In this document: piece by piece, positions 23,247 to 59,414 of the stretch | Numbering within the stretch: the first letter of the stretch is position 1 | How the letters are laid out: the number at the start of each line of letters is the position of its first letter | IMG/VR virus record: IMGVR_UViG_3300029305_003442 | Length of the DNA stretch: 64,000 nucleotides | Strand: one strand, 5' to 3' | From: a virus | Translations under genes and position numbers: made by a program | Notes under the pieces: model-generated | Databases searched by the model: none | The model's input: only the letters and a program-made list of their open reading frames with translations | Told to the model about the DNA's origin: nothing

Positions 23247-23275
23247 TTGACATAAATAAAAATTTATGTTATAAT
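23247..23275 (+). promoter_or_regulatory. Perfect consensus sigma-70/sigma-A promoter
   Basis: TTGACA (23247-23252) - exactly 17 nt - TATAAT (23270-23275), 35 nt upstream of ATG 23310. Confidence 0.6.
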
Positions 23276-23309
23276 AATATAAAAGAAAAGAAAGGTTAGG
23301 TATTTAATT

Positions 23310-23651: not shown

Positions 23652-24821
23652 ATGGCAGCTGATGATAAAATATTAGCAACGTAGATTAGTACAAATTCTT
23701 CTTCCTGGTATCAAAGATTAAGAGCTATTTAGGCAAATAATAAAACAGGTATAGGCGGGTCTGCTTTATAGCAGACCGCCGACCCTGGTATCACTTCAGG
23801 AACGAAGATGACAGCAACACATATTAATAATTTTATTAATGCTTTAACAGCTTTAAAATCAAATGTATTTTTAGCTTATGCGGATTGGACTAATTATACT
23901 CCTTCTACTGTTTCTAGTGGTGGAAAAGCTAATGCTTCTACTACATAGACTAAAATTAATAATATGTTAACATCACTAGAAAGTATATGTAGTAATTGTT
24001 AGACATATAGTACAAATAGTTATTCTAATACTTGTTCAAATAATGCTACAACTAGTTATTCAACCTATTCGGAAAGTATTGATAAATATAATTATTCTAA
24101 TACATGTAAAACTACTTATAATTCCACAGAATCTACAAACTCTACTTGGAGTGAAAGCTGTAAAACAACTTCTAATAGTACTAATAGCTATTGTTCTGAT
24201 GCTAATTGTAGCGCTTATAGCGAGAATGAAACTTGTGCAGAATTTTATGTTGGTAATAGCACTTATTCTACAGATAGCACTAGCTCAAATTCTACTTATG
24301 GAGTTGGAGATTCTACTTAGGCAACAGATGCTACTTCTGTTTGTGCTACTTTATCAACTTATAATGATGAAATATCTTATAGTACAGATTGTAGTGATGG
24401 TTGTTGGGATTGTACTTTTCATTCTTATTGTCCTGCAGCTGAAGTAGCTACTTATAGCGTCGGAGAGTGTTCAACTAATGCTACTAATTCTGAAAATTCA
24501 ACAGAAGGAGTTTGTAGCACTTGTAGTACTAATTCTACTGATTTTTATTGTAATGAAAACTCTTGTACTGAACATACAAATAGAGGTACATATTCAAATC
24601 ATTCACAATGTAGTACTTATGGAAAAAACAGTACATATAATGATACTTGTCAAACTTGTGAGACTGATTCAACCACATCAAATACAACTTATACTTAGTC
24701 AAATTCTACATATACTAACACTAATGATGGTTATAGTACATATTCAAAAAAAGCTACATATGGAACATATACTAATACAAGTGGTAATTCAACATATTAG
24801 ACTTATACGGTAAAAAATTAA
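23652..24821 (+). CDS. Cys/Ser/Thr/Asn/Tyr-rich low-complexity protein (389 aa, 22 Cys, 9 in-frame TAG); candidate substrate of adjacent radical-SAM enzymes
   Basis: AAAGGAGG SD; ATG 23652; frame 3 verified codon by codon to TAA 24819-24821 with only TAG interruptions. Track ORFs 24043-24447 and 24478-24813 are other-frame shadows of this low-complexity gene. Confidence 0.6.
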
Positions 24822-24851: not shown

Positions 24852-26210
24852 ATGTTACAAGATAGAGAAACAATTATTTTATATACTACAGCAGTATGTA
24901 ATTTAAATTGTACTTATTGTTTTATTGATAAAAATCCAAGTTTAAAAAAGATAGATCAATGGCTTGATGATAGTTTTTTAAAAACTCCAGATTATTATTT
25001 TGAATATGCAAAAAAAGCCGTTTTACAAGAAAAACTAAAAGAAGTATAGATTTGGGGTGGAGAACCTTTTTTGGGTATGCATAGAGCCTATGCAACAATA
25101 GATAAATTTATTAATTATTTTCCAAATTTAAAAAATTTTATGACTTCTACAAATTTTGTATCTCATTGTTTTTTTGAAGAATTTTATGGACTTCTTGATA
25201 TTTTTAGAAAGCATCCAAATAGAAATTTTACATATAGTTTATAGTTATCATTAGATGGTGTAAAGGAAATAAATGATATTAATAGAGGTAATGGAGTTAC
25301 TGATCGTTTTATTATTAATTTTGAAAAATTTGTTAAAGAATTACAAACTTTATTACCAAACAATTTAACATTAAAAATGCATTTAAAGCCCACTATTGAT
25401 ACAAATTCTTTGAAAAAATTATAGACTAAAGAACAAGTTTTTGAACAATTTATCTTTTTTGAAAGCTTCAATGAAGTATATTTGAAATATAATAAAAAAA
25501 ATAATTTACTATTTTCACTTCCAATTCCTAATACAGCTTGCCCATCTCCTCATACTCAAGAAGATGGAATAATGTTTGCAAATTATTGTAAAATAACAAG
25601 AGAGCTTGAAAAAGAAAATAAAAATAATAAAATTTTTAAATTTTATAATAATATTACAAGCTTTACTCCAAGAAGAAAAATTCAATATGACAAACTTTCA
25701 TTATCAGGATATTGTCAAGGTCATTGTGGTAATGGAAAAAGAGCTATTGGTCTTTTACCTAACAATATGGTTTCTTGTTGTCATAATGGTTTTGTTGATT
25801 TGCTAGCTGAATATAAAAAGAATGTATTAACAAATAGTGAACATATGGATAATGTTACTATTGAAAAAAGTTTATTTAAAAATAAACGTAATACTTTAAT
25901 TTTCCCTTATGATAGTAAAGAATTTGAAATGTATCAAAAACAATTAGAAGTTTTTTATCAAAATGATGATACTGCCAAAATTTCTAATTGTGCTTCTTTA
26001 ATTAAATTATTGGCTGATTTTGAACAAATTGATAAAAAATATCAAGATAAAAAAGAAGCTGTTAAAGGTGCTTATTTTATTTTTAATACTACATCATATT
26101 GTGTTAGAGATAATTTAGGTGTGACTGGAAGCATCTATATGTATCCTGTTGGTTTAATTAAATTATTGCTAAATGGAGCTAGAGAATATATTGAGGAAGG
26201 ATGTAATTAA
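24852..26210 (+). CDS. Radical SAM / SPASM-domain enzyme #1 (452 aa, 3 in-frame TAG)
   Basis: AAAGGAG SD; CNLNCTYC (CxxxCxxC) at residues 16-23; IWGGEPFL; SLDGVKEINDINRG (anSME-like). C-terminal Cys cluster CPSPH...CQGHCGNGKRAIGLLPNNMVSCCHNGF consistent with SPASM/twitch auxiliary cluster. Track ORFs 24852-25049 and 25482-26210 share frame 3. Confidence 0.75.
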
Positions 26211-27599
26211 ATGGCAAAGTGTTTAAATTTTTAGGAAGAAAAAGATGTTATTTTATGGTCATTAATTAATGATACATTTGGAAGACTTTTTTCTAAAGAA
26301 AAAAAAGAAGATATTGAACATGATATGGGGTTAGAAATTTATATAACCCCTGAATGTAATTAGAATTGTTCTTATTGTTATTTATGTAAAAATGGTGATG
26401 AACTTTATCCTAAAGAATTAAGAAATCCTACAATAATTTTAAATAATTTAAAAATTATGTTAGATTATTGTATTGATAATAATTGGAATCCTGGAAGATT
26501 TGATTTTTTTTCTGGAGAAATTTGGGATACTGATTTAGGTTATAATGTTTTAAGCATTACAGAAGAAGCAATAGAAAGAGGTTTTCACCCTAGACTAATT
26601 GTAATTCCATCAAATTTTAGTTTTATTTTAAATGAAGAAGCTAAAAATAGAGTTGAAAAATTTATGGAAAAATGTAGACAATTTAATATAAAGCCATGTT
26701 GGTCTTGTTCTAATGATGGTTTATTGTTAGATTTAGAGACAAGACCATTTAATTCAGATGAATTAAATGCAAAAAAAGATACTGAAGATTATTATAAAAA
26801 ATTATTTGAATTTTGTAAAAAATGGAATTTAGGTTTTCATCCAATGGTGGCAGCACACGGAATTGAAAAATGGTCAGAAAATTTTTTATGGTGGATGTCA
26901 GAATTAAAGAAATATAAATTTGAAAGAAATTCTTCAATAATGTTTTTAGAAGTTAGAAACGATGATTGGACAGATGATAAAATTTATCATTATTTAAAAT
27001 ATTTAAATACTAGTATTAATTATTTAAATGATGAATGTATTAATTTAAATACATTGTCTTTTGAAGATTATGTTAGAAAAACTAATAAAAATATTAAATA
27101 CAATTATACACCTGTTATTTTAGAAAAATCAAGTTTATAGCCTGGATGCACTATTCATAGATCTTTAGTTATTCGTTTAGGTGATTTAGCAATAGTTCCT
27201 TGTCATAGAACTTCTTATGAAGAATTTATTATAGGACATTTTAAAGTAGAGAATAATAAAATTATAGGAGTTACAGCTAAAAATATTCAAATAATGAATT
27301 AGGTATGGCTAAATAATATGAGTGGTAATGCTAAATGCACTAATTGTCCTTATAGCAATTACTGTATGAAAGGATGTTATGGTTCTTAGTTTGAATCTAC
27401 TGGAGAATTATTATATCCAATAGAATCAGTATGCAATTTATATAAAGCAAGAGCAATATTTATTTTTTATAAATATTTAAAAATGGGTATTTATAGAGAA
27501 GATAATCCCGAGGATAAAAAATATTTTGATTTTATTCAATCAATTAAAGATACGAAGGAGTTTAAAAAATGGTACAAAATTGTTTAGGAATTGATTTAA
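26211..27599 (+). CDS. Radical SAM / SPASM-domain enzyme #2 (462 aa, 4-5 in-frame TAG)
   Basis: ATG immediately after upstream TAA (translational coupling); ITPECN(Q)NCSYCY CxxxCxxC; C-terminal CTIHRSLVIRLGDLAIVPCH...AKCTNCPYSNYCMKGCYG SPASM-like Cys motifs; frame 3 with track ORF 26457-27140; TAA 27597-27599 if TAG 27585 is read through. Confidence 0.7.
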
Positions 27600-28168
27600 T
27601 TAATATTTATGAAAATCTTATCATAAATGGATTAAATGTAGAATTAGCAAAAGATATTGAAAAATATTTGATTTATTTTTTAGACAATAACACTAATGAA
27701 AATTAGTTATTATTATATAATTTATTAAATATTTTAAAACGTCAATAGAATACATCAATTCTTCTAAATTTTTTAATTCAAGAAGTTGAATTAAAGTTAT
27801 TAAGATTAAGTTTTTCTAATAATGATATAAAAAATAATAAAGATTGTTATAATATTTCATCTTGTCAAAAAAATGAATCTAAAGAAGAATTAAAGAAAAT
27901 TTTAAAAGTAACTAATAAAGATTTATTCCCTCCAAAAGGGACTACAACTCGTATTATTAATAAAAGAAAAGAAGAAAATGAAGAACATGAATATGTTTTA
28001 GAGATAGATGATCAAGGTAATGTTTTAGAAATTTTAGAACATTATATAACAAAAAATGATGCAGATTCTATTGATATATTAAATGATTCTCCTTTAAGCA
28101 AACTTAAAGAAAAATATCTTAAAGAAGATAAAGAAAATAATTCTTTAACAGAAAATGATTTAGAATAA
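27569..28168 (+). CDS. Hypothetical helical protein (199 aa, 2 TAG) within rSAM cassette
   Basis: AAGGAG SD 27555-27560; ATG 27569; frame 2 to TAA 28166-28168. Confidence 0.45.
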
Positions 28169-28193
28169 TATTAATAATTTAAATATTTCTAAA

Positions 28194-29270
28194 ATGGGAT
28201 TAGGAATTATGCGTCATAATTCTAATCAACAATATACAAAACAACTAATAGAATATGCTTTAAATAATAAAATTAATTATTTTGAAGCTTGTGATTTCTA
28301 TTTACAAAACGCTTGTGAAATACGTCTTGGGGATGCTTTAAAATAGCATCCTCGGACTTCATATAAATTATGTGATAAACTTCCATTATCTACAATTCCT
28401 TATTTTATTCAAAAAAATAAAAATTGGAATTTAAATGATTATTTTAATAATCAATTAGCAAAATGTAGAACTGATTATTTTGATGTTTATTTGATTTAGG
28501 CTTTAGATGAACGTAATTTTAATTACTTGGAAAAATATCAAATTATTGATTTCTTTTTAAAACAAAAAGAACAAGGAAAAATTAAATTATTGGGTTTTTC
28601 TTTTCATGGAAAAGTTGATATTTTAAAAAAATTATTAGAAATGAAATGTTGGGATATCGTTTAGTTTCAATTAAATTATTATGATTGGATTTTAGGTGAG
28701 GCGAAAGAATTATATTTTTTAACAAAAGAATATGATTTACCTATTATTACAATGGGACCAACTAAAGGCGGATTATTAATAAATAATTTACCTAAAAAAT
28801 CATTAGATAGATTAAAAGAAAACAATATTAATCCAGTCTATTTATGTTATTCTTTTTTAGAAACTTTAGACAACGTTAAAATTATTTTATCAGGAGCAGA
28901 AACTTATGAAATGATTAAAGATAATTTAAATTATTTTGAAAATGAATCTCATAAATTAACTCCAGAAGAGTGGTAGCATATTAAACAAAATATTCAAGAT
29001 TATCAAGAATAGAGTTTAATTCAATGTACGGGATGTCGTTATTGTGTTCAAAGATGTCCTGCTAATTTACCAATAGATAAAATTTTTAAAGAATATAATA
29101 ATTTTATTCAATCTAAAGATTTATAGTCAAGAGAATTTTTATATTAGAATATTCATAGTTCTAACTCTACACAGAATTGTAAAAATTGTGGTCAATGTGT
29201 AAAAATTTGTCCGCAACATTTAAATATTCCAGAAATTTTTCATAAACAAATTTTCCCAGTAAGGAGATGA
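28194..29270 (+). CDS. Aldo/keto-reductase-family oxidoreductase fused to C-terminal 2x[4Fe-4S] ferredoxin domain (358 aa, 8 TAG)
   Basis: ATG 28194 in frame 3 with track ORF 28752-28976; C-terminal CTGCRYCVQRCP and CKNCGQCVKICP ferredoxin motifs; TGA 29268-29270. Confidence 0.6.
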
Positions 29271-29274: not shown

Positions 29275-29685
29275 ATGGTAGTATCTGAATTAGTAGCTAC
29301 AATTTTTCAAGTTTGTATAATTCCATTATTGGGTGTATTAACTACTTTTTTTGTAAAATGGGTTAATTCCAAAAGCGCAGAAATCTCAAATAAAATTGAT
29401 GATGAAACATTAAATAAATATTTAAATATGCTTACTGAAACAATTAATACTTGCGTTTTAGCAACCAATTAGACATATGTTGAAAGTTTAAAACAACAAG
29501 GAAAGTTTGATGCGGAAGCGCAGAAAGAAGCATTTAATTTAACTTGTTCAGCAGTAATGGATATTTTAAGTGAGGACGCAAAAGAATATTTAACTTCTGC
29601 TATTGGAGATTTACAAATTTATATTACAAAGAAAATTGAAGCTGAAGTACATACAAATAAAGTTACACCTTGTGTAAATCAATAA
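29275..29685 (+). CDS. Putative holin (136 aa; N-terminal TM helix then amphipathic region), LL-H/phiLC3-holin-like
   Basis: AAGGAG SD; MVVSELVATIFQVCIIPLLGVLTTFFVKW TM segment; one in-frame TAG 29470-29472; TAA 29683-29685; last gene before terminator. Confidence 0.5.
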
Positions 29686-29695
29686 AATAAATATA

Positions 29696-29735
29696 GGGGA
29701 ACCTTTAGTATAATCTAAAGGTTCCCCTTATTTTT
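29696..29735. terminator. Bidirectional rho-independent terminator between convergent holin (+) and LytTR regulator (-) genes
   Basis: GGGGAACCTTT-agtataatct-AAAGGTTCCCC with T-runs on both sides (TTATTTTT on +; TATATTTATTTT on -). Confidence 0.6.
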
Positions 29736-30482: not shown

Positions 30483-30511
30483 ATTATAACATAAATTTGT
30501 GAGAAAATCAA
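30483..30511 (-). promoter_or_regulatory. Consensus sigma-A promoter for LytTR regulator gene (member of repeated promoter family)
   Basis: Minus strand TTGATT-17-TATAAT (fwd aatcaa 30506-30511 ... attata 30483-30488). Confidence 0.5.
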
Positions 30512-36426: not shown

Positions 36427-36455
36427 ATTATATCATATTTTTTTATTTTTGTCAA
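36427..36455 (-). promoter_or_regulatory. Perfect consensus promoter TTGACA-17-TATAAT on minus strand (overlaps nrdG stop)
   Basis: fwd tgtcaa 36450-36455, attata 36427-36432. Confidence 0.55.
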
Positions 36456-45770: not shown

Positions 45771-45799
45771 ATTATACCATATTTTATATGAAAAATCAA
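45771..45799 (-). promoter_or_regulatory. Promoter-family member upstream of dnaE (TTGATT-17-TATAAT)
   Basis: fwd aatcaa 45794-45799, attata 45771-45776. Confidence 0.5.
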
Positions 45800-45990
45800 G
45801 TTGTATATTCTTGAAGTACAGAAGCTAATGTACGCCTAAAATCTTCATTTCTTTGAACTCGTAATTTTAAATCATCCATTTCAGCTTTTTCTTTATCTAA
45901 TTGTTTTGCCATAGCTAATAATGAATGAGCGGCTGCTTCTAAATCGCGAGCAGCTTGTGTTAAGTTTTTTGAAGTTTCGTTTTCATCCAT
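45796..45990 (-). CDS. Small hypothetical protein (64 aa)
   Basis: Track ORF. Confidence 0.35.
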   Translation of the reverse strand: MDENETSKNLTQAARDLEAAAHSLLAMAKQLDKEKAEMDDLKLRVQRNEDFRRTLASVLQEYTT

Positions 45991-45993
45991 AGA

Positions 45994-47184
45994 TTAACTA
46001 CTCCTTATTAATACTAATTTATCTTTAGCTCTTGTGATTGCTGTATATAACCATTTTTGATGTTCTTCTTTATTGAATGGAAATCTTTCTTCAAATACTA
46101 AAACTTTATTCCATTCACTACCTTGTGCTTTATGACAGGTAATAGCATAAGCATATGCAAAATCATATGGTGGCTCTAAATCACAATTTTTATTTTTTTT
46201 CATTTTATATATTTCAATTGGAGTTAATGTTGAAGTATTATTAACTAAATAATTATAATCAATTGGAATATTCATAAAAGTATCATCTTCAAAATCCATA
46301 TGAGTCATCATATATTCAATTGGTGCCGTTCTAATATATCTAAATGTATATTTATTTTGTTTAAAAAAAGAATCTATTGTTCCAATAGAGCCATTTGTGA
46401 GTGGCCAATTTCCATTAGCAGAATAGAATTCCCAATGATTAGATAGACTGATAATCTTATCTCCGACACATGGCTCTGGGCCATATCCCTTTTTTTCTCT
46501 AATAAAATTATTTATGTAATTTCTTGTATCATTAGTGGCGCAAAGAATTTGGTCTGCCCAATCATACATTCCAGTACAAATTTCGTTTTTAGAAAATAAT
46601 TTTACTTGTTCTCCTAATGCTTGAAAGCTACTTAAAGGCTTACCCTCTCTTACATGCATTGATAGTCTAATAATTTCACTATCTTGCGCTTGCCGCATAA
46701 TTTCATCAAGAAAAATATGCGGATTATCTAATACATGATTATTGTCTTCTGGATTTACAGGTGGTAACTGGCCGGGGTCGCCGCAAGCTAATACATATAT
46801 TTTATGACTTAATAACAAATCCCACATAGGCTTAGGTAACATAGATACTTCATCAACAACAATTACTTTATAAGCATCTTCTAAGTTTTTCCGTGGTTCA
46901 TGAATAAACTTTCCACTTGGTAATTGTTTAGAATAATAAAGTAATTTATGCGCAGTAGTAGCATTATAGCATCCTTTTTGTTTAAGAACAGTAGCTGCTT
47001 TACCAGTAAAAGCTATATAACAAACTTCAGTTACTGGGTCTACTGGTAAAGCTGAAATAATATATTTAATTAAAGTACTTTTACCACTACCAGCATATCC
47101 TGAAATTATAGTATATGGTTCTTTATCAAAATATCTTTTAATAGAAATAGTTAAACCTTCTGTTTGTTTATTTGTTAATATCAT
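45994..47184 (-). CDS. RecD/Dda-like SF1 DNA helicase
   Basis: GYAGSGKST Walker A; VVDEVSM; C-terminal ITCHKAQGSEW. Confidence 0.7.
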   Translation of the reverse strand: MILTNKQTEGLTISIKRYFDKEPYTIISGYAGSGKSTLIKYIISALPVDPVTEVCYIAFTGKAATVLKQKGCYNATTAHKLLYYSKQLPSGKFIHEPRKNLEDAYKVIVVDEVSMLPKPMWDLLLSHKIYVLACGDPGQLPPVNPEDNNHVLDNPHIFLDEIMRQAQDSEIIRLSMHVREGKPLSSFQALGEQVKLFSKNEICTGMYDWADQILCATNDTRNYINNFIREKKGYGPEPCVGDKIISLSNHWEFYSANGNWPLTNGSIGTIDSFFKQNKYTFRYIRTAPIEYMMTHMDFEDDTFMNIPIDYNYLVNNTSTLTPIEIYKMKKNKNCDLEPPYDFAYAYAITCHKAQGSEWNKVLVFEERFPFNKEEHQKWLYTAITRAKDKLVLIRSS

Positions 47185-47186
47185 TT

Positions 47187-47420
47187 TTAATCCTCTTTAT
47201 TATTTACATGAGCATGTACTAATTGTTCTAAACAATTATAAAAGTGCATTTTTTGAGTTTCTGCTTGATTATGTTCTTGTTCATAATCATGACTACGCTC
47301 TGCTTTTAATCTAGCAACTTCGTCACAGAGAATAGCATATCTAAAATAAATGCTATCAAAACCAAAATCTAATCTATCTTTATATAAATTTTCTAATGCT
47401 TTTTCCTCTATTGTAATCAT
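47187..47420 (-). CDS. Small hypothetical protein (77 aa)
   Basis: Track ORF. Confidence 0.35.
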   Translation of the reverse strand: MITIEEKALENLYKDRLDFGFDSIYFRYAILCDEVARLKAERSHDYEQEHNQAETQKMHFYNCLEQLVHAHVNNKED

Positions 47421-47776
47421 AAGTTAAACTCCTTTATAAAATTTTCGTACCATTTATCAATTTGCTCAAAAATTTCTAAATCACTTTTTTCTTTTGGTTT
47501 CTCGGTCTCAGCTTCCAACACCGGCCGGAGCAATTTTTCCTCCATTAAATAGACAGTATTCATTATATGGTCATATGTAAGCAATTTATTTTCAGTATCA
47601 TTAATCCTAGCATCTAAATTTCTCACCTAATCTTCTATTGTGTCTATACGACCGTAACGACCAAGTGCTTTAACTATATCTGTAACTTCATATAATGAAA
47701 TTCTATATTTATCTTCAAATTGATTTTCAAACCATGTGAAATTATCTTCACCAAGCTTTATTTGAGTTTGTATCAT
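47417..47776 (-). CDS. Hypothetical protein (119 aa, 1 TAG)
   Basis: ATG 47776; in frame with track ORF 47417-47626. Confidence 0.4.
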
Positions 47777-47815
47777 AAATATATTTACCCCTCACTTATT
47801 ATTATTTCTATATAT

Positions 47816-47844
47816 ATTATATCATATTTTTTTATAAAAATCAA
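47816..47844 (-). promoter_or_regulatory. Promoter-family member (TTGATT-17-TATAAT)
   Basis: fwd aatcaa 47839-47844, attata 47816-47821. Confidence 0.5.
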
Positions 47845-47846
47845 AA

Positions 47847-47869
47847 AGGGAAGATTTTATTCTTCCCTT
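47847..47869 (-). terminator. Hairpin terminator immediately upstream of promoter
   Basis: AAGGGAAGA-ttttat-TCTTCCCTT, T-run on minus strand. Confidence 0.4.
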
Positions 47870-48687
47870 ACAAAATATTCATATGCTTTTAAAGCATTTG
47901 TTTTTCTTACAGAATAATAAGCAGAATTGCAACGTTCATAACTTTTAGCAAAAGCTAGTGCTACTTCTTGAGCATCTTGTAATGCTAAAAACTTTTCATA
48001 TGAAAAATCTTTTTGATAAGCGCGCCCAAAAGTATTAATTTCATATTCAATAGTATCTCTTAAAAAATCACATTGCTCTTGTAAACTTCCACCCACAATA
48101 GAACTATAATATGTGGTATTCCATTGGCACATTCCATAATGAACTTTGCCACCATATAGCCAATATTGAATATCTAAAGTATTACCTCCAACTTCAGCCA
48201 TTATATTTCCTAAAATACCAGCAATTACATAATTATTATATCCTAAATTTTTTAAATATAACCAAATTTCTGTTGCTACTGGATAATCTGTTTTTCTTTC
48301 TAACCAGAAATTATAATCATTTGTATATTTAGTATATAATTCATGTGCTTCTTCCCATTCTCTTTTGGCTAATTGAATAATTAAATGATTATCTTCATAT
48401 CTAAGAGCCCGAGCCATTTCTGCCATTTGATGAGCAATTTCTTTTTTATCCTGATAGTAAGAAATTTTTGTTGTTAAAATTTCTAAATCATCGGTTTCAA
48501 TATATTCATGTGGAATAGTTTTTTCTGTTGAATATACTGGTTCACATTCTTCAGCCGGTACATCAGCTACACAAGTTGAAACTGGTGATAATATAATTGG
48601 TTCATCAGCTTTAATTAAAGTAGTATTTGGATTTATGTGAAAGAAAATAGATAAAGTTAAAGTGAATACAATAATATATTTTTTCAT
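47857..48687 (-). CDS. Secreted lysozyme-like protein (signal peptide MKKYIIVFTLTLSIFF; tail-tip-lysozyme-like motif AGILGNIMAEVGG ... GMCQWN); candidate endolysin
   Basis: Internal ATG 48687 with AGGAGA SD chosen over track start 48816, which overlaps the RecJ-like gene. Confidence 0.5.
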   Translation of the reverse strand: MKKYIIVFTLTLSIFFHINPNTTLIKADEPIILSPVSTCVADVPAEECEPVYSTEKTIPHEYIETDDLEILTTKISYYQDKKEIAHQMAEMARALRYEDNHLIIQLAKREWEEAHELYTKYTNDYNFWLERKTDYPVATEIWLYLKNLGYNNYVIAGILGNIMAEVGGNTLDIQYWLYGGKVHYGMCQWNTTYYSSIVGGSLQEQCDFLRDTIEYEINTFGRAYQKDFSYEKFLALQDAQEVALAFAKSYERCNSAYYSVRKTNALKAYEYFVREE

Positions 48688-48725
48688 AATTTTTCTCCTA
48701 ATATTTCTATTAGGTCTATCGTGTT

Positions 48726-50297
48726 TTAAAAATAGTATGTTTGTTTTCCTGTAATTTCGTAATCTTCTATAATAATTTGCGGACTTACAATACCATTCCA
48801 AATATTTCGCTCGCATTTGCCAACGATATTAATTGTTACACAACCTAAATTAGAATATAAAGATTCATATTCTTCTTTAGACGACCTGAATTTAATTAAA
48901 CTCATCCCATTTGGAAGTGTAATCTTTAGAGTAGGATTTTTATCTTCAGACATTAACTTTAAATTTTCATTATTAATTTTAATATTTTCAATCGCAATTA
49001 ATGGTTCTTCTACTCCTTGACCCCAAATTGTTTTTAAGTTGGCTAATTCTAAAACATCATTAACATTCATGTCATTATGATTAAAAATATAATCAACTTT
49101 ATAACTAGGGATAAACTCAAAATCCTTTAAATTATCATTAGCATATTCAATAAACTTATCAATTCTATCATTTGTAAAAGCGCATCCAAAGGCTTGAGCA
49201 TGACCTTCCGCAAATTCGTCAAGATGGCTTGATATAATAAATTCTCTAAAATTATCAAATTTAGAATTACTTAAACCTCTACCAGAACCTTCCCAAGAAT
49301 TATCATCTTGTTCATTTAAAAGTAATACTGGCTTTTGATATTTAGACATTAATTGATTTGCGATTAAGCCTGTTAAATTCTTATCAATAGAATATTTTTT
49401 TGGTAATTGAATTACTAAAATTTTATTTTTTAAAAGATTTTGTTCTTGAATGAGATTTTCAATTATTTCCAAGCTCGTGTCTCTTGCTTTAGTTTGTCTA
49501 TTTTTAATATTAGAGCAATTACGACAAGCTTGTTCTACCCTTGTCTCTGTTTGACCTTGACATCCACGCTTAGTTGAAGAAATCATTTTATAACCTAAAT
49601 GGTCTAACATAGATTCAAATAGAATTAGCTTTTCATTTTGCGTGCCAACCCGAATGGTTGCGTTGACATAAGGAGCAATATAAAAAGCTATACCGAATGG
49701 TGTTAACTCACCTTTTAATGAAAAGGCTTGTTTATCTACCATTCCTTTAAAAAATGGATTACGAACTTGTTTAATACCACATCTAATTAAATGTGTAGTT
49801 TCAAAATCTCGTAAATCCATCATATCTGCTACCATACCAAGAGCAACTAAATCAAGAAATTGATTAGCATAATCTACATCTAAAAGTTCATCAATATATG
49901 AACAAAATTTATAAACCATACCAACACCAGACAGTGATTTTGTAGGATAATCACATAGTTGATTATTAATTACGCAGGCATCTTCACATTCATATTCAGC
50001 TTCATGATGGTCAATAACTAATACATCTATATTTTTAGATTTTAATTCTTTACATTCATCATAGCTATTGGAACTAGAATCTGGAGCAATAACTAATTTA
50101 ATGTTATTAGTAATAGTTTCTGGAATTATACCATGCTGTTTTCCAGTATGTAATCTATAGTAGATATGATTTGACACAAAAGATGGAAATAAACAATTTA
50201 AATAGTTTATAAGAGCGGCAGCGCTTGTGAAGCCATCAGCATCACTATCTACTTGAATCATTATATCATCATTTTGTGCTATATGTTTAATAAGCAT
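48726..50297 (-). CDS. RecJ-like DHH-family ssDNA exonuclease
   Basis: DSDADGFTSAA and VIDHHEA DHH motifs. Confidence 0.65.
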   Translation of the reverse strand: MLIKHIAQNDDIMIQVDSDADGFTSAAALINYLNCLFPSFVSNHIYYRLHTGKQHGIIPETITNNIKLVIAPDSSSNSYDECKELKSKNIDVLVIDHHEAEYECEDACVINNQLCDYPTKSLSGVGMVYKFCSYIDELLDVDYANQFLDLVALGMVADMMDLRDFETTHLIRCGIKQVRNPFFKGMVDKQAFSLKGELTPFGIAFYIAPYVNATIRVGTQNEKLILFESMLDHLGYKMISSTKRGCQGQTETRVEQACRNCSNIKNRQTKARDTSLEIIENLIQEQNLLKNKILVIQLPKKYSIDKNLTGLIANQLMSKYQKPVLLLNEQDDNSWEGSGRGLSNSKFDNFREFIISSHLDEFAEGHAQAFGCAFTNDRIDKFIEYANDNLKDFEFIPSYKVDYIFNHNDMNVNDVLELANLKTIWGQGVEEPLIAIENIKINNENLKLMSEDKNPTLKITLPNGMSLIKFRSSKEEYESLYSNLGCVTINIVGKCERNIWNGIVSPQIIIEDYEITGKQTYYF

Positions 50298-50487
50298 TTT
50301 AGCTCCATTATTAATATTTTTAATTAAAGAAGGAGATAAAATGTCATTATCAGTTGTATTGAGGTAATGCTATACCTCTGCCAGAGGAATTCCTCTATTT
50401 GTTAATACTCTCTATACCGCAGTTAATTTTATTTTTTGTGGAATAGATGAATCTATAAGCTTATATTCCATATTTATCACTCCTATT

Positions 50488-50790
50488 TTAATAGAAATTA
50501 TAAGCAGTAAAAGGAGGAGCGCTTGTACTAGGTCTAATGATATTATGTCTTATTTCTACTGGAATATTATTATCTATATAAGATATATTACATTTAACGC
50601 CACGACTTAATTCAGTAGCTTTTTTTACCATCCAGTAATCGCCATTAGTAAAATGTACTTCATATTTATATTTATTACATTGTACATCTTCAATAATATT
50701 TTCACCATAATATCGTACATAACTGTCTATAATTTCAGTTAATTTATTACAAGCATATTCAAATGTATTTCCCCAAACTATACCTTTCAT
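50488..50790 (-). CDS. Hypothetical protein (100 aa)
   Basis: Track ORF, ATGA overlap with primase stop. Confidence 0.4.
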   Translation of the reverse strand: MKGIVWGNTFEYACNKLTEIIDSYVRYYGENIIEDVQCNKYKYEVHFTNGDYWMVKKATELSRGVKCNISYIDNNIPVEIRHNIIRPSTSAPPFTAYNFY

Positions 50791-51887
50791 AAAATTATTC
50801 TCTCCTTAAACAATTGTAAAAATTTATCCATTCCTTCATCTATTGGACTTGCTTTATAATTAGTTATCATATTTTTATCAAAAATAAATGAAATATTTAC
50901 AAAATTCTTATATTTAGAATATAATTGTAATAAATTCTTTTTTAAGTGTTTAAATTCATCATCGCCTATTTGTTGAAATTGTCTGTCAAAAGCAACAATA
51001 ATTTCTTGCACTCCCATTTCTATTAATAATTGAATTTGATAAGATGAAATACTACTACCACAACAAGAAACACTAATATCATTTTCTTCACCGAAATAAG
51101 AACGATATAAAAGATTAGATTTTTCGCCTTCAAACACAATAGCTTTTTTCATAATTTTAATATTATCTTTACTGTGATTTAAATTGTATAAATTCATTCC
51201 AAGAGGATGATTATATAACTGTTTATTAACTTTAATTGGCCTATATTTTCCATATCGTTCAGCATCATCGGCGCAAAGTGTGCGGCCGCGCAGCCCCACG
51301 AATCTATTATCTTTATCAAAATGAGGAATCGTGATTTGGTCGCCTCCTGGATAATAACCAATACGAGCATTTTTCATTGTCTCTAAACTAATTCCTTCTT
51401 TAATCCAAGGACTAATTATTACATTATAATTAAATCTATCAAGAATATTATTATCATATTCTTTTAAAATAATATTATTAGTTTTTAATTCAATTTCTTG
51501 AATTCGTTCATAATTAGAAAAATATTTCCAATCTTCTAAATCAGATTGATTATCTTCTTCTATAGAACCAGAAATACCAAATTTTTGAGCAATCCAACGA
51601 ATAGCATCATTTAAATCAAATACTTGATTATGTTGAATTTTCATAATTTTTATAACTAATTCAAAAATATCAAAATAAGCATCACAACCAGTATAACATT
51701 TAAATAAATTACTATTTTCATAATAATATAATTTTCTACTTCCTTCTCCGGGGTAATTATGGCAAATGGTGGAGGATAAAATGCCAAAATTTGAATATTC
51801 TGGTTCTCCTCCCCATTCTTGTAATAAATCATATATATTATGAATTGTTAAATTATCTCTAATTTCATTCTTATCAAATACTATCAT
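50787..51887 (-). CDS. DNA primase (zinc-binding CHC2-type finger + TOPRIM)
   Basis: CHNYPGEG...KCYTGCDAYFDIFE; IVFEGEKS / VAFDRQ. Confidence 0.65.
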   Translation of the reverse strand: MIVFDKNEIRDNLTIHNIYDLLQEWGGEPEYSNFGILSSTICHNYPGEGSRKLYYYENSNLFKCYTGCDAYFDIFELVIKIMKIQHNQVFDLNDAIRWIAQKFGISGSIEEDNQSDLEDWKYFSNYERIQEIELKTNNIILKEYDNNILDRFNYNVIISPWIKEGISLETMKNARIGYYPGGDQITIPHFDKDNRFVGLRGRTLCADDAERYGKYRPIKVNKQLYNHPLGMNLYNLNHSKDNIKIMKKAIVFEGEKSNLLYRSYFGEENDISVSCCGSSISSYQIQLLIEMGVQEIIVAFDRQFQQIGDDEFKHLKKNLLQLYSKYKNFVNISFIFDKNMITNYKASPIDEGMDKFLQLFKERIIL

Positions 51888-52060
51888 TAAAAAGTTAATA
51901 CGCGGGTAACAGGTCTAAGAAGACCATATTGCTCATTGACTACCTTACAAAGATATTCATTAGGACGCATTTTCTTATCAAGCCCATCACGACTTCTTAA
52001 AAGTTCCTTAGCTAATTCTTCAGGCATCTTATACTCAAAATAAGCATTCTTGTTTTCCAT
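51887..52060 (-). CDS. Small hypothetical protein (57 aa)
   Basis: GAGGT SD; ATG 52060 to TAA 51887-51889. Confidence 0.3.
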   Translation of the reverse strand: MENKNAYFEYKMPEELAKELLRSRDGLDKKMRPNEYLCKVVNEQYGLLRPVTRVLTF

Positions 52061-52074
52061 AATTATTACCTCTC

Positions 52075-53616
52075 TTATTCATTATATTCAAAAGCTGATT
52101 CTTCATCTAATTTAATTTTGATATCTTTCATATCTATTAATTCATAATCATATGAAGTACAAAACATAGGTTGAATTCTACAACAACCCAAATCTGCTTT
52201 ACACCATAAATAAACACCTTTATAACGTCCTCGTCTATTTTTATAAACAGACAATTTAATTGTGGGTTTATCAAAAACATTAGTTGCTAAAATTGTTTCT
52301 AAAGCTTGAATATCTTCTTCTTTTACATTTAATAAAATCGCACCCACGTCAATTTTATCGGCAATTGCTTTAGCACCTCTCAGTAATGTTTGGTCTGGAG
52401 TTTTTGATTCGGCAAAATCACCATTTAACTGCGTTGCTGACATAATAAACACTCCATATTGATTACAAATATCTTTTAATCGTGTAGATAACATAAATAA
52501 AATATTATCTTCACGCAATTTAATACCGCCACTTCTTCGCGTTATTTCTTCAAGAATTTTTAAACTTGTATGAATATAGTCATGAAAAATATAATATACA
52601 TCATGGTCACGAATATTTCTTTTAATTGTATTTTCTACATCTTTTAAAGAAAAATCTGGCAATTCTTCTACATAAAGTGGAGCATTAGATAAGATTTTAG
52701 CTGCTTCTAAAACCCTTTCTTCTTCATTACCATCATATTGACCATTTAAAATATGCTCTTCATTAACATTAGATATAAAAGCTAACATCATAGTTTGAAC
52801 TTCTTCAAGTTCCTGTTCTGTTGTAATGAACAATACTGGTCTATTAACACCACAACTAATCCATCCAAAAGATTCATCATAAATTTTATTACAAGCAATA
52901 TAACAAGCATCAGCTATCATACTTCTTGTTTTTCCAACACCTGTAGCTGCTGAACGCAAATAAAATTTTTTTAATCTTGCTCCACGAGTAACTGTATTAA
53001 TCAATGGTCCATATAATGGAACACCAACTTCTGGATGTTGTTTAAATTTATCAATCAATTCAAAAATTCCATCGGCGGCTTGACTGGCTTCTCCATCACT
53101 ATCATCCACATATTGAAGTCTAATATTATCAATTTTTTTATCAACTTGGTCAGCAATCTCTTCAAGATTTACATTATCCAACCAATCTTCTTGAATTTGT
53201 TTCTTTTTTACATCAAGAATATTATTTGGGTCATATAAATCAGAAATATCAATGCCGCAATTATCATAAGCTCTTAAAAGAGTGAACTTTTTTAATCTAT
53301 TATAATAATAATCAAATGTTGAACTCATACAAGTTTCAGCAGCTTTTAAAATCCACTCTTCACCTTTTTGTTGTTTATATATTGCCGCACTTTTTGGTCT
53401 ATTGGATAGAAAATCTGATATATTTTCTAATGTAATTTTTTTTGCTCCCAATTCATAAATTTTATAAATTGCTCCAAAAATTATACGATGGAATTCATCT
53501 GGAAAATCTTCATCTGTAATAATATATTTATCAGTAAAATCTAAAATTTGCGGTGTATTATATACACATCCAATTACTTGAATAATTGCTTGTATATCTA
53601 CATATTGTGATGCCAT
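52075..53616 (-). CDS. DnaB-family replicative helicase
   Basis: N-terminal DnaB-like helical domain; ATGVGKT Walker A; 513 aa; no TAG. Confidence 0.7.
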   Translation of the reverse strand: MASQYVDIQAIIQVIGCVYNTPQILDFTDKYIITDEDFPDEFHRIIFGAIYKIYELGAKKITLENISDFLSNRPKSAAIYKQQKGEEWILKAAETCMSSTFDYYYNRLKKFTLLRAYDNCGIDISDLYDPNNILDVKKKQIQEDWLDNVNLEEIADQVDKKIDNIRLQYVDDSDGEASQAADGIFELIDKFKQHPEVGVPLYGPLINTVTRGARLKKFYLRSAATGVGKTRSMIADACYIACNKIYDESFGWISCGVNRPVLFITTEQELEEVQTMMLAFISNVNEEHILNGQYDGNEEERVLEAAKILSNAPLYVEELPDFSLKDVENTIKRNIRDHDVYYIFHDYIHTSLKILEEITRRSGGIKLREDNILFMLSTRLKDICNQYGVFIMSATQLNGDFAESKTPDQTLLRGAKAIADKIDVGAILLNVKEEDIQALETILATNVFDKPTIKLSVYKNRRGRYKGVYLWCKADLGCCRIQPMFCTSYDYELIDMKDIKIKLDEESAFEYNE

Positions 53617-53630
53617 TAAACATCATCCTC

Positions 53631-54146
53631 CTATTCTTCATCCAAAAACGTAAATAATTTTCTTTTTGGCTTAATTTTTCGTTTTGGAATTGGAATAATT
53701 ATTTCTTGTACTTCCGGCACATATTCTTTAATTACTTTATTTTCATTTTTTTGTTTAGCTTCCCATAAGCTATAATAATAATTAAAAGCATTTTGATACA
53801 CATATGGAACTATACCTATACCACCATTTGCTTTTTCAATATCACCATTTTTAACTTCATAATGATAAACTAATGCTTTTTGAATTCCAGAATATGTATA
53901 TTTATAATTATTTATATATTCATTAATTTGTTTACGAATACGAGCATCCACATATGAAATATTAAATAATTTCATAATATAATTTTCTAAATCATTTTTT
54001 TCTTTTTCAAGTTGTTCTTGTTCTTTTTGCTTTAAATCAAAACAATTTTTATGAGCATACCGACGAGAACTAGTATTTATATATTGTTCTGTATTAGCAT
54101 CAAATTGCTAACCGCAAATAGAACATTTTACTAAATGTTTAGCCAT
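53631..54146 (-). CDS. Hypothetical protein (171 aa, N-terminal CSICG zinc motif, 1 TAG at 54108-54110)
   Basis: ATG 54146 with GAAAGGAG SD; in frame with track ORF 53631-53975. Confidence 0.4.
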
Positions 54147-54181
54147 TGAATACTCCTTTCATTTTTATATTTTATATAAAT

Positions 54182-54210
54182 ATTATACCATATTTTTATA
54201 TAAAAATCAA
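54182..54210 (-). promoter_or_regulatory. Promoter-family member (TTGATT-17-TATAAT)
   Basis: fwd aatcaa 54205-54210, attata 54182-54187. Confidence 0.5.
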
Positions 54211-54236
54211 GGCAAGATTTTTCAACCTTGCCTTTT
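54209..54236 (-). terminator. Hairpin terminator directly upstream of promoter
   Basis: AAGGCAAG-atttttcaac-CTTGCCTT. Confidence 0.35.
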
Positions 54237-54243
54237 ATATTTA

Positions 54244-55233: not shown

Positions 55234-55253
55234 TTTTAATTACCTCCATTTAA

Positions 55254-56186: not shown

Positions 56187-56217
56187 AATTTAATTTTCTC
56201 CTTAATTAATACATTTT

Positions 56218-56583: not shown

Positions 56584-56609
56584 ATTATCTTTTTTAATTT
56601 TCTATAAAT

Positions 56610-56638
56610 ATTATATCATATTTTTTTATAAAAATCAA
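56610..56638 (-). promoter_or_regulatory. Promoter-family member (TTGATT-17-TATAAT)
   Basis: fwd aatcaa 56633-56638, attata 56610-56615. Confidence 0.5.
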
Positions 56639-57463: not shown

Positions 57464-57465
57464 TG

Positions 57466-57768: not shown

Positions 57769-57769
57769 A

Positions 57770-58759: not shown

Positions 58760-58814
58760 ATTTTAGAAAAATTAAGGGATAGATGTTTAGTCTATCCCTA
58801 TATTTATATTATAA

Positions 58815-59383: not shown

Positions 59384-59414
59384 AAAATTTTCTTCCTTAA
59401 TCTTTACTATATAT

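What the first reader, a model, noticed from the sequence alone, without database searches (positions are those of the whole stretch)
23247..23275. Textbook-perfect sigma-70 promoter inside the late region
TTGACA, then exactly 17 nt, then TATAAT, placed between the structural genes and the rSAM cassette. A perfect consensus promoter suggests strong host-RNAP transcription independent of phage late regulators. Because the downstream genes contain TAGs, their productive translation would still depend on the suppressor. This sets up a possible two-layer (transcription + recoding) control of the cassette and holin.
Basis: seen in the sequence. Interest (0 to 1): 0.5.

Follow-up and report, generated by a model that had tools for sequence, protein, structure and literature searches.

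The report
Host-type promoter heading a mobile phage cassette
The perfect bacterial-type promoter is real and conserved: it is the start signal that travels with an accessory radical-SAM gene cassette (and here also feeds the holin) in a group of gut/rumen phages that read the TAG stop codon as glutamine, which makes it a known kind of element in a useful setting rather than a new one.

Summary
The motif is exactly as described: TTGACA, 17 nt, TATAAT at 23247-23275, plus a TG extended -10. It is not chance. About 0.08 perfect sites are expected per window and three occur. Ten sites fit a relaxed family pattern against 0.37 expected, and all ten are intergenic and point at the downstream gene.

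Eight lineages that carry the cassette in the same slot keep AAA-TTGAC, the 17-nt spacing and TATGnTATAAT, while the flanks diverge. A same-type promoter also heads the cassette where it has moved (L057) and in most distant relatives. A collinear relative (L001) lacks both promoter and cassette.

The best reading is a sigma-A-type promoter heading a mobile accessory cassette: a tail-tube-fold ORF, a Cys-repeat protein, two rSAM/SPASM enzymes, an unknown 199-aa ORF and an aldo-keto reductase-ferredoxin. With no terminator before 29695, the unit also includes the holin.

The first ORF is TAG-free in every lineage and the second always has TAGs. However, late read-through can also enter, and three other units show the same promoter/TAG combination.

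A conserved dyad in the spacer hints at regulation. In distant relatives the amber-suppressor tRNA sits beside the cassette behind the same promoter type. This is a new member of a known kind, of moderate interest.

The parts
23247..23252 (+). -35 hexamer TTGACA (6/6), preceded by AAA, which is also invariant in relatives
23253..23269 (+). 17-nt A/T-rich spacer. No indel occurs here in 8 lineages.
23250..23269 (.). Perfect dyad ACATAAAT-N4-ATTTATGT overlapping the -35, the spacer and the TGn. It is unique in the window. As RNA it would form a 10-bp hairpin of -7.1 kcal/mol with no U-tract. Dyads with different sequence and loop length are kept in L055, L056, L089, L090 and L067.
23267..23269 (+). 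TGn extended -10 element (TGT)
23270..23275 (+). -10 hexamer TATAAT (6/6)
23281..23284 (+). Predicted transcription start (A run 6-9 nt after the -10), giving a 5' UTR of about 27 nt. Inferred, not mapped.
   Evidence: sequence; standard sigma-70 geometry (general knowledge)
23290..23301 (+). GAAAGGTTAGGT ribosome-binding region, conserved in L002, L054 and L089
23310..23615 (+). [not shown]
23652..24821 (+). 389-aa protein with 8 TAGs: a conserved N-terminal domain of about 110 aa followed by a Cys/Ser/Thr/Asn/Tyr-rich repeat region. Presumed rSAM substrate. The equivalent gene carries 4-9 TAGs in the 7 lineages tabulated.
24852..26210 (+). Radical SAM enzyme 1 (CxxxCxxC; PF04055). Its best NCBIfam matches are RiPP maturases, all far below the curated cut-offs.
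26211..27599 (+). Radical SAM/SPASM enzyme 2. The SPASM domain TIGR04085 passes its cut-off; weak PapB/SCIFF-like matches.
27569..28168 (+). 199-aa ORF of unknown function, conserved in the cassette
28155..29270 (+). Aldo/keto reductase fused to a 2x[4Fe-4S] ferredoxin domain; 8 TAGs
29275..29685 (+). Holin (phrog_13712) with 1 TAG at codon 66 of 136. In L001, L015 and L017 it directly follows the 204-aa gene.
29695..29728 (.). Bidirectional intrinsic terminator: 14-bp stem, -26 kcal/mol, T-tracts on both strands. It is the first terminator downstream of the promoter and is conserved in L001.
30483..30511 (-). Sibling promoter TTGATT-17-TGtTATAAT driving the convergent response-regulator-like gene 29743-30447
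36427..36455 (-). Sibling perfect promoter (12/12 plus TG) downstream of nrdG. Positionally conserved in L001, L056 and L057.
45771..61469 (-). Seven further family members, with -35 starts at 61469, 59443, 59190, 56638, 54210, 47844 and 45799, in the replication block. Their approximate by-eye consensus is TTGAttTTTatAAAAAAATATGrTATAATATwTATAG.

Best explanation
The site is a functional sigma-70/sigma-A-type promoter of the extended -10 class, read by the host RNA polymerase. It is one of at least ten such promoters in this window, and three more lie just outside it.

It is the 5' control element of a mobile accessory cassette. The cassette encodes a tail-tube-fold ORF, a Cys-repeat protein, two rSAM/SPASM maturase-like enzymes, a 199-aa ORF and an aldo-keto reductase-ferredoxin. 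In this phage the cassette sits between a tail-type gene and the holin.

Transcription is predicted to start near 23282 and run about 6.4 kb through tightly packed genes to the bidirectional terminator at 29695-29728. The unit therefore includes the holin. No terminator lies upstream in this phage, so late read-through transcripts probably enter the same unit. The promoter adds transcription that does not depend on the late programme.

Only the first ORF can be translated without amber suppression. Every other gene in the unit carries in-frame TAG (Gln) codons, so its protein output should depend on the phage's suppressor tRNA.

Shown: the motif, its non-random occurrence, the promoter family, evolutionary conservation, association with the cassette, the TAG distribution and the gene content. 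Inferred: that it fires, the start site, the timing, and translational gating.
For: Motif: 12/12 match, 17-nt spacing and TGn. About 0.08 perfect sites are expected per window and 3 are found.

Family: 10 sites against 0.37 expected, all intergenic and correctly oriented. Three more occur beyond the right edge of the window.

Conservation: the promoter is identical in 7 further contigs of the same phage and in L002 and L054. In eight same-slot lineages (rSAM1 identity 61-86% where that gene is in the contig) the invariant columns are AAA-TTGAC, AAA and TATG-n-TATAAT. No indel lies between the hexamers, while both flanks carry substitutions and indels.

Link to the cassette: L057 has the cassette plus holin in a different genome position, again headed by a family promoter, there behind a terminator. 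Most distant IMG/VR relatives (37-58% rSAM1 identity) have a TTGAC(a/t)-17-(TG)nTATAAT site 45-75 nt before the first gene of the string that holds the rSAM pair: L058, L061, L065, L066, L067/70/79 and L068. L001 is collinear over 13 genes but lacks exactly the promoter plus the six cassette genes. Its 204-aa gene is followed by the holin after 10 nt, as in L015 and L017.

Transcription unit: no terminator-like site lies between 23276 and 29695, and intergenic gaps are 36 nt or less.

Context: the sibling promoters head replication genes, namely ligase, DnaB, Pol III alpha and NrdD.

TAG: 28 TAGs in 2110 codons in the unit, with the first ORF TAG-free in 10 of 10 lineages despite 22 ordinary Gln codons. 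TAG = Gln.
Against: There are no transcription data of any kind, so function rests on sequence and conservation.

The genome is 72% A+T, and weak promoter-like matches are not enriched.

In this phage a promoter is not strictly needed, because upstream late transcription is not terminated before it.

The ribosome-binding site of the first ORF is mediocre: AAAGG lies 14 nt and AGG 9 nt from the ATG.

The closest relatives (L002, L054) are 80-90% identical locally, so their 35-nt identical run is only the 4th longest in 5.3 kb. The weight lies on the more distant lineages.

Some distant loci show no high-scoring site directly in front of the string (L059, L060, L074-76, L081).

The host, and therefore its sigma-A specificity, is only inferred.
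Confidence: 0.8

Rival explanations
1. The promoter is regulated rather than constitutive. The conserved dyad between the -35 and -10 would be an operator for a dimeric repressor, or would form a DNA or RNA hairpin that modulates initiation. Firing would then be conditional. This refines the best explanation rather than excluding it.
For: The dyad ACATAAAT-N4-ATTTATGT is unique in the window. Equivalent dyads with different sequence occur in L055, L056 (AGCATAA/TTATGCT, changed on both arms), L089, L090 (ATAGCA/TGCTAT) and L067. Each gives p = 0.006-0.07 against spacer shuffles. The early-family promoters and L057, L058 and L091 lack such a dyad. The P22 ant moron is a precedent for repressor control inside a late operon (PMC2629481).
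Against: The left arm sits at variable distance (loop 1-8 nt), which is unusual for a protein operator. The lineages are related, so the p-values are not independent. The adjacent first ORF is acidic (pI 4.3-5.0) with a tail-tube fold, so it is not an Arc/Cro-like autoregulator. The nearby regulator's own promoter does not co-vary with the dyad in relatives. The hairpin is weak: -7.1 kcal/mol, with z = -1.65 in its 70-nt context.
Confidence: 0.3
2. The element's main evolutionary role is as a mobile regulatory junction like the PeSLs of T4-type phages. Near-identical promoters, with or without stem-loops, are scattered through the genome and provide homology for recombination that inserts, deletes and relocates cassettes. 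Promoter activity would be real but secondary to the conservation at the cassette boundary.
For: The promoter family is highly similar over roughly 37 nt. The cassette is present, absent or relocated with a family promoter at its 5' edge. The slot after the 204-aa gene is variable across about 40 loci. GC-rich stem-loops abut the -35 at 61469, 54210 and 47844, and a terminator precedes the promoter in L057, L090 and L091. The PeSL concept is from PMC2839356.
Against: 23247 has no stem-loop partner in this window. No repeat copy marks the 3' edge of the cassette. The cassette-head promoters form their own sub-lineage (dyad-bearing) rather than copies of the early consensus. No recombination junctions or mini-circles could be examined.
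Confidence: 0.2
3. The conserved feature is an RNA hairpin in the read-through late mRNA, serving processing, stability or translational coupling between the 204-aa gene and the cassette. The promoter resemblance would be incidental.
For: There is no terminator upstream, so the sequence is transcribed within late mRNA. The dyad is kept through changes on both arms and with variable loop length, which fits a hairpin better than an operator.
Against: The invariant columns across eight lineages are the two hexamers, TG and the exact 17-nt spacing, not the arms. Lineages without a dyad (L057, L058, L091) keep the promoter. The hairpin is short, A/U-rich and weak. In L090 and L091 a strong terminator lies upstream, so little read-through would reach it.
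Confidence: 0.07
4. A chance match to the consensus in very A+T-rich intergenic DNA.
For: The window is 72% A+T, and generic 9-of-12 promoter-like matches are at the shuffled expectation.
Against: About 0.08 perfect sites are expected and 3 are observed. The family has 10 members against 0.37 expected. The site is conserved in position and geometry in diverged lineages and follows the cassette when it moves.
Confidence: 0.02

Closest known systems
Extended -10 (TGnTATAAT) sigma-70/sigma-A promoters of bacteria and their phages (from general knowledge; common in Gram-positive hosts)
   Same: A -35 TTGACA, a 17-nt spacer, TGn and a -10 TATAAT, placed 34 nt upstream of a start codon with a ribosome-binding site between. 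It belongs to a genome-wide set heading the replication genes.
   Different: Activity, start site and the host sigma factor are untested. The spacer carries a conserved dyad, which ordinary promoters do not need.
Phage 'morons', e.g. the ant moron in the late operon of P22-like phages (definition and description in PMC2629481)
   Same: A group of genes with its own promoter that appears inserted into a late operon when related phages are compared. It is absent from collinear relatives, sits in a slot that varies between phages, and carries a dyad within the promoter, reminiscent of the repressor control (Mnt, Arc) of the P22 ant region.
   Different: No private terminator: the unit runs on through the holin to an ancestral terminator. 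Base composition equals that of the flanks. The genes use the phage's own TAG=Gln code. The first gene has a virion (tail-tube) fold, so the cassette may be structural. No repressor gene was identified. Temperate life style is unknown.
PeSLs (promoter-early stem-loops) of T4-type phages (PMC2839356, PMC4122927)
   Same: Repeated strong sigma-70-like promoters, some fused to stem-loop terminators, found at the edges of genes that differ between related phages.
   Different: 23247 has no stem-loop in this phage. Recombination at these sites is not demonstrated. The host and phage lineage differ.
Stop-codon recoding as post-transcriptional control of late and lysis genes (Borges et al., bioRxiv 10.1101/2021.08.26.457843; code 15 validated in PMC9523058)
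   Same: TAG is read as Gln, replication genes are largely TAG-free, and structural and lysis genes are recoded (holin 1 TAG; the amidase outside the window 11). Suppressor tRNAs are encoded by related phages.
   Different: That work does not discuss promoters; the word does not occur in its text. Here host-type promoters sit directly in front of TAG-rich units, and in relatives in front of the suppressor tRNA itself. This makes the gating idea directly testable.
RiPP-type clusters carried by phages, such as sublancin in Bacillus prophage SPbeta (recalled from memory, not checked here)
   Same: A peptide or protein modification cluster in a large Firmicute phage genome, expressed from a host-type promoter.
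   Different: The presumed substrate here is a 389-aa protein with a conserved N-terminal domain and no evident leader or export system. The chemistry (rSAM/SPASM) and the genomic setting (next to tail genes and the holin) both differ.

Membership tests
sigma-70/sigma-A extended -10 promoter | -35 and -10 hexamers close to TTGACA/TATAAT with 17 +/- 1 nt spacing | tested here: met
   12/12 match with a 17-nt spacer
sigma-70/sigma-A extended -10 promoter | TG dinucleotide one base upstream of the -10 | tested here: met
   TGT-TATAAT at 23267-23275. TG is invariant in 8 lineages.
sigma-70/sigma-A extended -10 promoter | Intergenic position, oriented toward a downstream gene that has a ribosome-binding site | tested here: met
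   Lies in a 67-nt gap, 34 nt from the -10 to the ATG, with GAAAGGTTAGG between
sigma-70/sigma-A extended -10 promoter | Selective constraint on the hexamers and their spacing rather than on the surrounding sequence | tested here: met
   Alignment A4: the invariant columns are the promoter elements, no indel lies between them, and the flanks diverge
sigma-70/sigma-A extended -10 promoter | Initiation of transcription by host holoenzyme about 7 nt downstream of the -10 | not testable with these tools
   No expression data are available
Phage moron | Genes inserted between two genes that are adjacent in related phages | tested here: met
   In L001, L015 and L017 the 204-aa gene is followed by the holin after 10-14 nt. 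L001 is collinear over 13 genes.
Phage moron | Own promoter (independent expression) | tested here: met
   Met at sequence level only
Phage moron | Own terminator at the 3' end of the insert | tested here: not met
   No terminator lies between the cassette and the holin. The first one, at 29695, is also present in L001, which lacks the cassette.
Phage moron | No role in morphogenesis or lysis; often foreign base composition | tested here: inconclusive
   The first ORF has a tail-tube-like fold. GC is 0.24 against 0.27 in the flanks and the codon third-position GC is similar. The cassette uses the TAG=Gln code at structural-gene density.
PeSL-type mobile regulatory cassette | Strong sigma-70-like promoter physically coupled to a stem-loop terminator | tested here: not met
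   There is no stem-loop at 23247. The coupling is present at 61469, 54210 and 47844, and at the cassette heads of L057, L090 and L091.
PeSL-type mobile regulatory cassette | Copies flank insertions, deletions and replacements between related genomes | tested here: inconclusive
   A copy marks the 5' edge of the cassette in two genome positions. No copy was found at the 3' edge.
Recoding-gated late/lysis expression (Borges model) | In-frame reassigned stop codons concentrated in late or lysis genes and largely absent from early genes | tested here: met
   Structural genes and the cassette carry 1.2-1.4 TAG per 100 codons, while most replication units carry 0-0.4. The exceptions are the units at 36455, 59190 and L092:579.
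Recoding-gated late/lysis expression (Borges model) | Phage-encoded suppressor tRNA | tested here: inconclusive
   None was found in the window or about 8 kb beyond its right edge. tRNA-CTA genes lie next to the cassette in 7 distant loci.
Recoding-gated late/lysis expression (Borges model) | Delay between transcription and translation of the gated genes | not testable with these tools
   Needs paired RNA-seq and proteomics or ribosome profiling
Operator-controlled promoter (P22 Pant/Arc-like) | Dyad-symmetric site overlapping the core promoter | tested here: met
   Arms of 8 bp with a 4-nt loop at 23250-23269. The dyad is retained in 5 other sequence versions.
Operator-controlled promoter (P22 Pant/Arc-like) | Cognate small DNA-binding repressor encoded in the unit | tested here: not met
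   The first ORF is acidic and has a tail-tube fold

The most novel reading that the evidence does not exclude
In these TAG=Gln Firmicute phages, timing of a whole class of genes would be set mainly by the suppressor tRNA rather than by transcription. That class includes the rSAM/Cys-repeat cassette, the holin and the amidase. The genes sit behind host-type promoters that can fire from the start of infection. Only TAG-free leader products, such as the tail-tube-fold ORF, would be made until the suppressor tRNA accumulates. In relatives that tRNA is embedded beside or in the same cassette behind the same promoter type. The conserved spacer dyad would add a further switch. The cassette promoter would then be one visible piece of a self-contained 'code-switch plus payload' module.
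Probability: 0.2. Interest if true: 0.7.

Novelty: new member of a known kind. Interest (0 to 1): 0.4.

Why it matters
Stop-codon recoding in phages has been proposed as a post-transcriptional timer for late and lysis genes, but the transcriptional side has not been examined. Here a clearly defined family of host-type promoters can be read from sequence. It stands in front of both TAG-free replication genes and TAG-rich units, including the holin-containing cassette, a probable endolysin, and, in relatives, the suppressor tRNA itself.

That gives concrete, cheap experiments. One is promoter-reporter fusions with and without an amber suppressor. Another is time-resolved RNA against protein measurement. 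Either could confirm or refute translational gating.

The work also documents a promoter that travels with a protein-modification cassette as it moves around phage genomes. This is useful for annotating such cassettes and for recognising operon boundaries in uncultivated large phages.

Tried and rejected
1. The -35 subtype as a predictor of recoding. Within the window, TTGACA units (1.0-1.3 TAG per 100 codons) separate perfectly from TTGATT units (0-0.4). The same phage's DNA beyond the right edge breaks the rule: a perfect promoter drives RNaseH/GyrB/GyrA with 0 TAG, and a TTGATT promoter drives a unit with 14 TAGs. Rejected.

2. A shared operator between 23247 and the regulator promoter at 30511, which share 21 identical nt. 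Regulator promoters in L056, L090, L091 and L057 do not follow the cassette dyad. Rejected as family resemblance.

3. The first ORF as an Arc-like autoregulator binding the dyad. The protein is acidic in 10 lineages and has a tail-tube fold. Rejected.

4. A phage-specific late-promoter motif. Many relatives show a terminator, a TGGnCAA box, about 30 nt, then a TTAGAGAA box after the 204-aa gene. Window gaps at 14107 and 20586 look similar, but pattern counts in the window equal the chance expectation. Left as an unproven lead.

5. The dyad as a terminator for the upstream gene. It has no U-tract and only -7 kcal/mol. Rejected.

6. Searches that found nothing: megablast of 20700-30500 against INPHARED phages; Rfam at gathering threshold over the window; tRNAs in the window, in 26 related loci and in the right-edge extension; IMG/VR relatives of the 101-aa ORF by single sequence.

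7. TAG possibly not encoding Gln, because the linked suppressor tRNAs have long variable arms. Alignment columns with TAG are 5.5-fold enriched for Gln, and one column is Gln in all 20 other sequences. Gln is retained.

8. Two translations (the large ORFs of L071 and L078) were in the wrong frame and were ignored.

Full report
**1. The observation**

The sequence at 23247-23275 on the + strand reads TTGACA-TAAATAAAAATTTATGT-TATAAT. Both hexamers are perfect and the spacer is 17 nt, as reported. The spacer ends in TGT, so the site also has the TGn extended -10 element.

The site fills most of a 67-nt gap between the TAA stop of a 204-aa gene (22628-23242) and the ATG at 23310.

The window is 28% G+C. 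A perfect N17 site is expected 0.07-0.09 times on both strands, yet three occur: 23247+, 36455- and 59190-. All three have TG. Weak promoter-like matches are not enriched (144 found, 136 expected), so only the top-scoring sites carry information.

**2. Genomic setting**

The window is part of a large phage genome. An identical copy of the 101-aa ORF lies on contigs of up to 186.5 kb.

Under the standard code the + strand block 43-33775 is fragmented. Reading TAG as sense restores long ORFs, and no gene ends in TAG. Alignment columns with TAG are 5.5-fold enriched for Gln. At one column all 20 non-TAG sequences have Gln, so TAG encodes Gln.

The - strand block (33802-64000) encodes replication and nucleotide-metabolism functions: GyrA/ParC, NAD-dependent ligase, DnaB, a split Pol III alpha and NrdD. 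It is largely TAG-free.

The + block has very large tail-type proteins with weak PHROG and LRR_5 matches.

No tRNA or Rfam family is found in the window. Related contigs come from rumen/gut-type metagenomes. All seven full-length relatives of rSAM1 in the genome collection lie in MAGs binned as Bacillota.

**3. A promoter family**

Scanning intergenic gaps showed that 23247 is one of ten sites matching TTGA-N16-T[GT]nTATAAT, against 0.37 expected. All ten are intergenic or at a gene's 3' end, and all point at the next gene.

Eight lie in the replication block. Several share a longer, roughly 37-nt consensus (by eye, TTGAttTTTatAAAAAAATATGrTATAATATwTATAG). Its downstream part, TATAATATwTATAG, occurs 6 times at one mismatch or fewer against 1.1 expected.

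Three more sites lie in the roughly 10 kb beyond the right edge of the window.

Only two sites lie in the recoded block: 23247(+) and 30511(-). The latter drives a convergent response-regulator-like gene. The two units meet at a strong bidirectional terminator at 29695-29728 (-26 kcal/mol).

The 33.7-kb + strand block has no other family-type site on its coding strand.

**4. What the promoter drives**

The genes downstream, in order, are:

- a 101-aa ORF;
- a 389-aa protein with a conserved N-terminal domain and a Cys/Ser/Thr/Asn/Tyr-rich repeat region;
- two radical SAM proteins: PF04055 in the first and a SPASM domain above cut-off in the second, with best NCBIfam matches to RiPP maturases, all far below the curated cut-offs;
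- a 199-aa ORF of unknown function;
- an aldo/keto reductase fused to a 2x[4Fe-4S] domain;
- a holin (phrog_13712, E = 1e-31).

Gaps between these genes are 36 nt or less, and no terminator-like site occurs before 29695. The predicted unit is about 6.4 kb and includes the holin.

In all lineages the gene before rSAM1 encodes a protein with short Cys-containing repeats, as expected for an rSAM/SPASM substrate. The cassette therefore looks like an accessory, probably virion-associated, protein-modification module.

**5. Comparative evidence**

(a) Seven contigs from other samples carry the same phage with an identical promoter.

(b) L001 is collinear with the window over 13 genes (30-76% protein identity) but lacks exactly the promoter plus the six cassette genes. 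Its 204-aa gene is followed by the holin after 10 nt, and the terminator is conserved. L015 and L017 are the same. Across about 40 loci the slot after the 204-aa gene is variable.

(c) rSAM1 has more than 240 homologues, many on contigs of 100-280 kb. L002, L054, L089, L055, L056, L090 and L091 have the cassette in the same slot, each with a 12/12 or 11/12 promoter plus TG in front. rSAM1 identity to the window is 61-86% in the six of these whose contig reaches that gene.

(d) An alignment of the eight gaps shows invariant AAA-TTGAC, AAA and TATG-n-TATAAT, with no indel between the hexamers. Both flanks vary and carry indels.

(e) In L057 the cassette plus holin has moved to the end of the + block. 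It is again headed by a family promoter, there after a terminator. L090 and L091 also have a terminator upstream.

(f) Many distant IMG/VR relatives (37-58% identity) have a TTGAC(a/t)-17-(TG)nTATAAT site 45-75 nt before the first gene of the string that contains the rSAM pair. A few do not.

The promoter is therefore a conserved component of the cassette.

**6. The dyad**

The spacer holds a perfect dyad, ACATAAAT-N4-ATTTATGT (23250-23269), which is unique in the window. Other lineages keep a dyad whose right arm always overlaps the TATG(T/C)T of the extended -10, but the sequence and loop length differ:

- L055: TAACATAAA-N2-TTTATGTTA
- L056: AGCATAA-N4-TTATGCT
- L089: AACATA-N6-TATGTT
- L090: ATAGCA-N8-TGCTAT
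- L067: TAACATAAA-N1-TTTATGTTA

Each gives p = 0.006-0.07 against spacer shuffles. The early-family promoters and L057, L058 and L091 lack such a dyad. These lineages are related, so the tests are not independent.

As RNA the dyad would form a weak hairpin (-7.1 kcal/mol) without a U-tract.

The first ORF is acidic and has a tail-tube fold, so it is not a candidate repressor. The regulator's promoter does not co-vary with the dyad.

The dyad is probably selected, but its role (operator, DNA structure or RNA hairpin) is open.

**7. The 'two-layer control' idea**

The unit carries 28 TAGs in 2110 codons, the same density as the structural genes. First TAGs fall at these codons:

- Cys-repeat gene: codon 11
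- rSAM1: codon 66
- rSAM2: codon 8
- aldo/keto reductase: codon 3
- holin: codon 66 of 136

The first ORF has no TAG in any of ten lineages despite 22 ordinary Gln codons. The Cys-repeat gene has 4-9 TAGs in every one of the 7 lineages tabulated. The rSAM genes range from 0 to 6.

Four points qualify this:

- The combination is not unique. Units at 36455, at 59190 and at L092:579 (with an Amidase_2 protein carrying 11 TAGs) share it.
- Gating of the enzymes is not conserved across relatives.
- Late read-through can enter the unit in this phage.
- Timing is untestable with these tools.

**8. An unexpected link to the suppressor tRNA**

Seven distant cassette-bearing loci carry a tRNA with anticodon CTA next to the cassette. 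Some of these loci may be duplicate or paralogous copies (L069/L080; L072/L078), so the number of independent lineages is smaller.

In L078 a family-type promoter is followed after about 20 nt by this tRNA and, 15 nt later, by the ribosome-binding site of the first large cassette gene. In L072 a perfect TTGACA-17-TGaTATAAT promoter precedes the tRNA.

**9. Comparison with known systems**

The element works like an extended -10 sigma-A promoter.

[quoted passage not shown] It fails other usual traits:

- it has no private terminator;
- its base composition matches its flanks;
- its content is probably structural.

It resembles PeSLs (PMC2839356) in being a repeated strong promoter at the edge of variable genes, but it lacks the stem-loop here.

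The TAG pattern fits the recoding model of Borges et al. (10.1101/2021.08.26.457843), which does not address promoters.

**10. Verdict**

The promoter is very likely real (confidence about 0.8) and is the conserved head of a mobile accessory cassette. 'Two-layer control' is plausible but unproven.

It is a new member of a known kind and of moderate interest. Its main value is that it makes translational gating by recoding directly testable.

Noticed in passing
L078:3247-3420; L072:9110-9260; L069:4863-5243; L071:3059-3147; L073:2736-2823; L068:3707-3794; L080:238-328: Distant cassette-bearing relatives carry an amber-suppressor tRNA (anticodon CTA, 87-93 nt, long variable arm, labelled 'Pyl' by ARAGORN) right beside the rSAM cassette. 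In L078 and L072 it sits about 20 nt behind a sigma-A-type promoter. In L078 it is co-oriented with the cassette genes and 15 nt upstream of their first ribosome-binding site. Some of these loci may be duplicate or paralogous copies.
   Followed up: partly
window 40673-45733 (- strand): The DNA polymerase III alpha gene is split into 44309-45733 and 40673-42985. Between them lies a 260-aa ORF (43303-44085) that looks like a GIY-YIG homing endonuclease by eye. It is flanked by unusually G+C-rich, structured-looking segments (42986-43302 and 44086-44308), which suggests a group I-like intron. Rfam at gathering threshold found nothing.
   Followed up: no
window 14097-14217 and 20584-20700 (+); L010-L039 gaps after the 204-aa gene: The + strand gaps contain very stable hairpins (-32 and -30 kcal/mol, z about -6 to -8) placed between GGACAA...TAGAA-like boxes and the ribosome-binding site. 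Many relatives show terminator, TGGnCAA box, about 30 nt, TTAGAGAA box, A/T hairpin, then ribosome-binding site. This could be the phage's own late-promoter or leader type, but it is not statistically supported within the window.
   Followed up: partly
window 29743-30447 (- strand): The convergent response-regulator-like gene (weak receiver-domain match and a weak LytR-family match) has a single TAG at codon 165 of 234. Without suppression it would yield a protein truncated in its C-terminal part. It is conserved next to the holin in L001, L056, L057 and L091, with a shorter call in L090.
   Followed up: no
L092:2689-4320 (same phage, about 5-7 kb beyond the right edge of the window): A 543-aa Amidase_2 / VgrG3-like_C protein, probably the endolysin, carries 11 in-frame TAGs and lies in a unit headed by a family promoter (L092:579). 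It is far from the holin and on the replication-gene strand.
   Followed up: partly
window 30733-33775: This stretch is markedly richer in G+C (0.37) than its surroundings (0.24-0.29). Gene 30733-31236 has the highest TAG density in the window (11 in 167 codons) and a Gln-rich product.
   Followed up: no
L061:3687-3750: The cassette-head promoter of this distant relative is bracketed by an inverted repeat of about 16 bp (AATATCTAATTTTTAT ... ATAAAAATTAGATATT) centred on the -10. This is a different and larger dyad than the one in the window. Seen by eye.
   Followed up: no
L067:3150-4955: In this relative the gene string behind the cassette promoter begins with a 601-aa protein that looks YcaO-like by eye. 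This suggests additional modification chemistry in some versions of the cassette. Not tested.
   Followed up: no
window 23237-23264: An 11-nt direct repeat, AATAAAAATTT, occurs twice (23237-23247 and 23254-23264) and overlaps the promoter. It is not conserved in other lineages and is probably incidental in A/T-rich DNA.
   Followed up: partly
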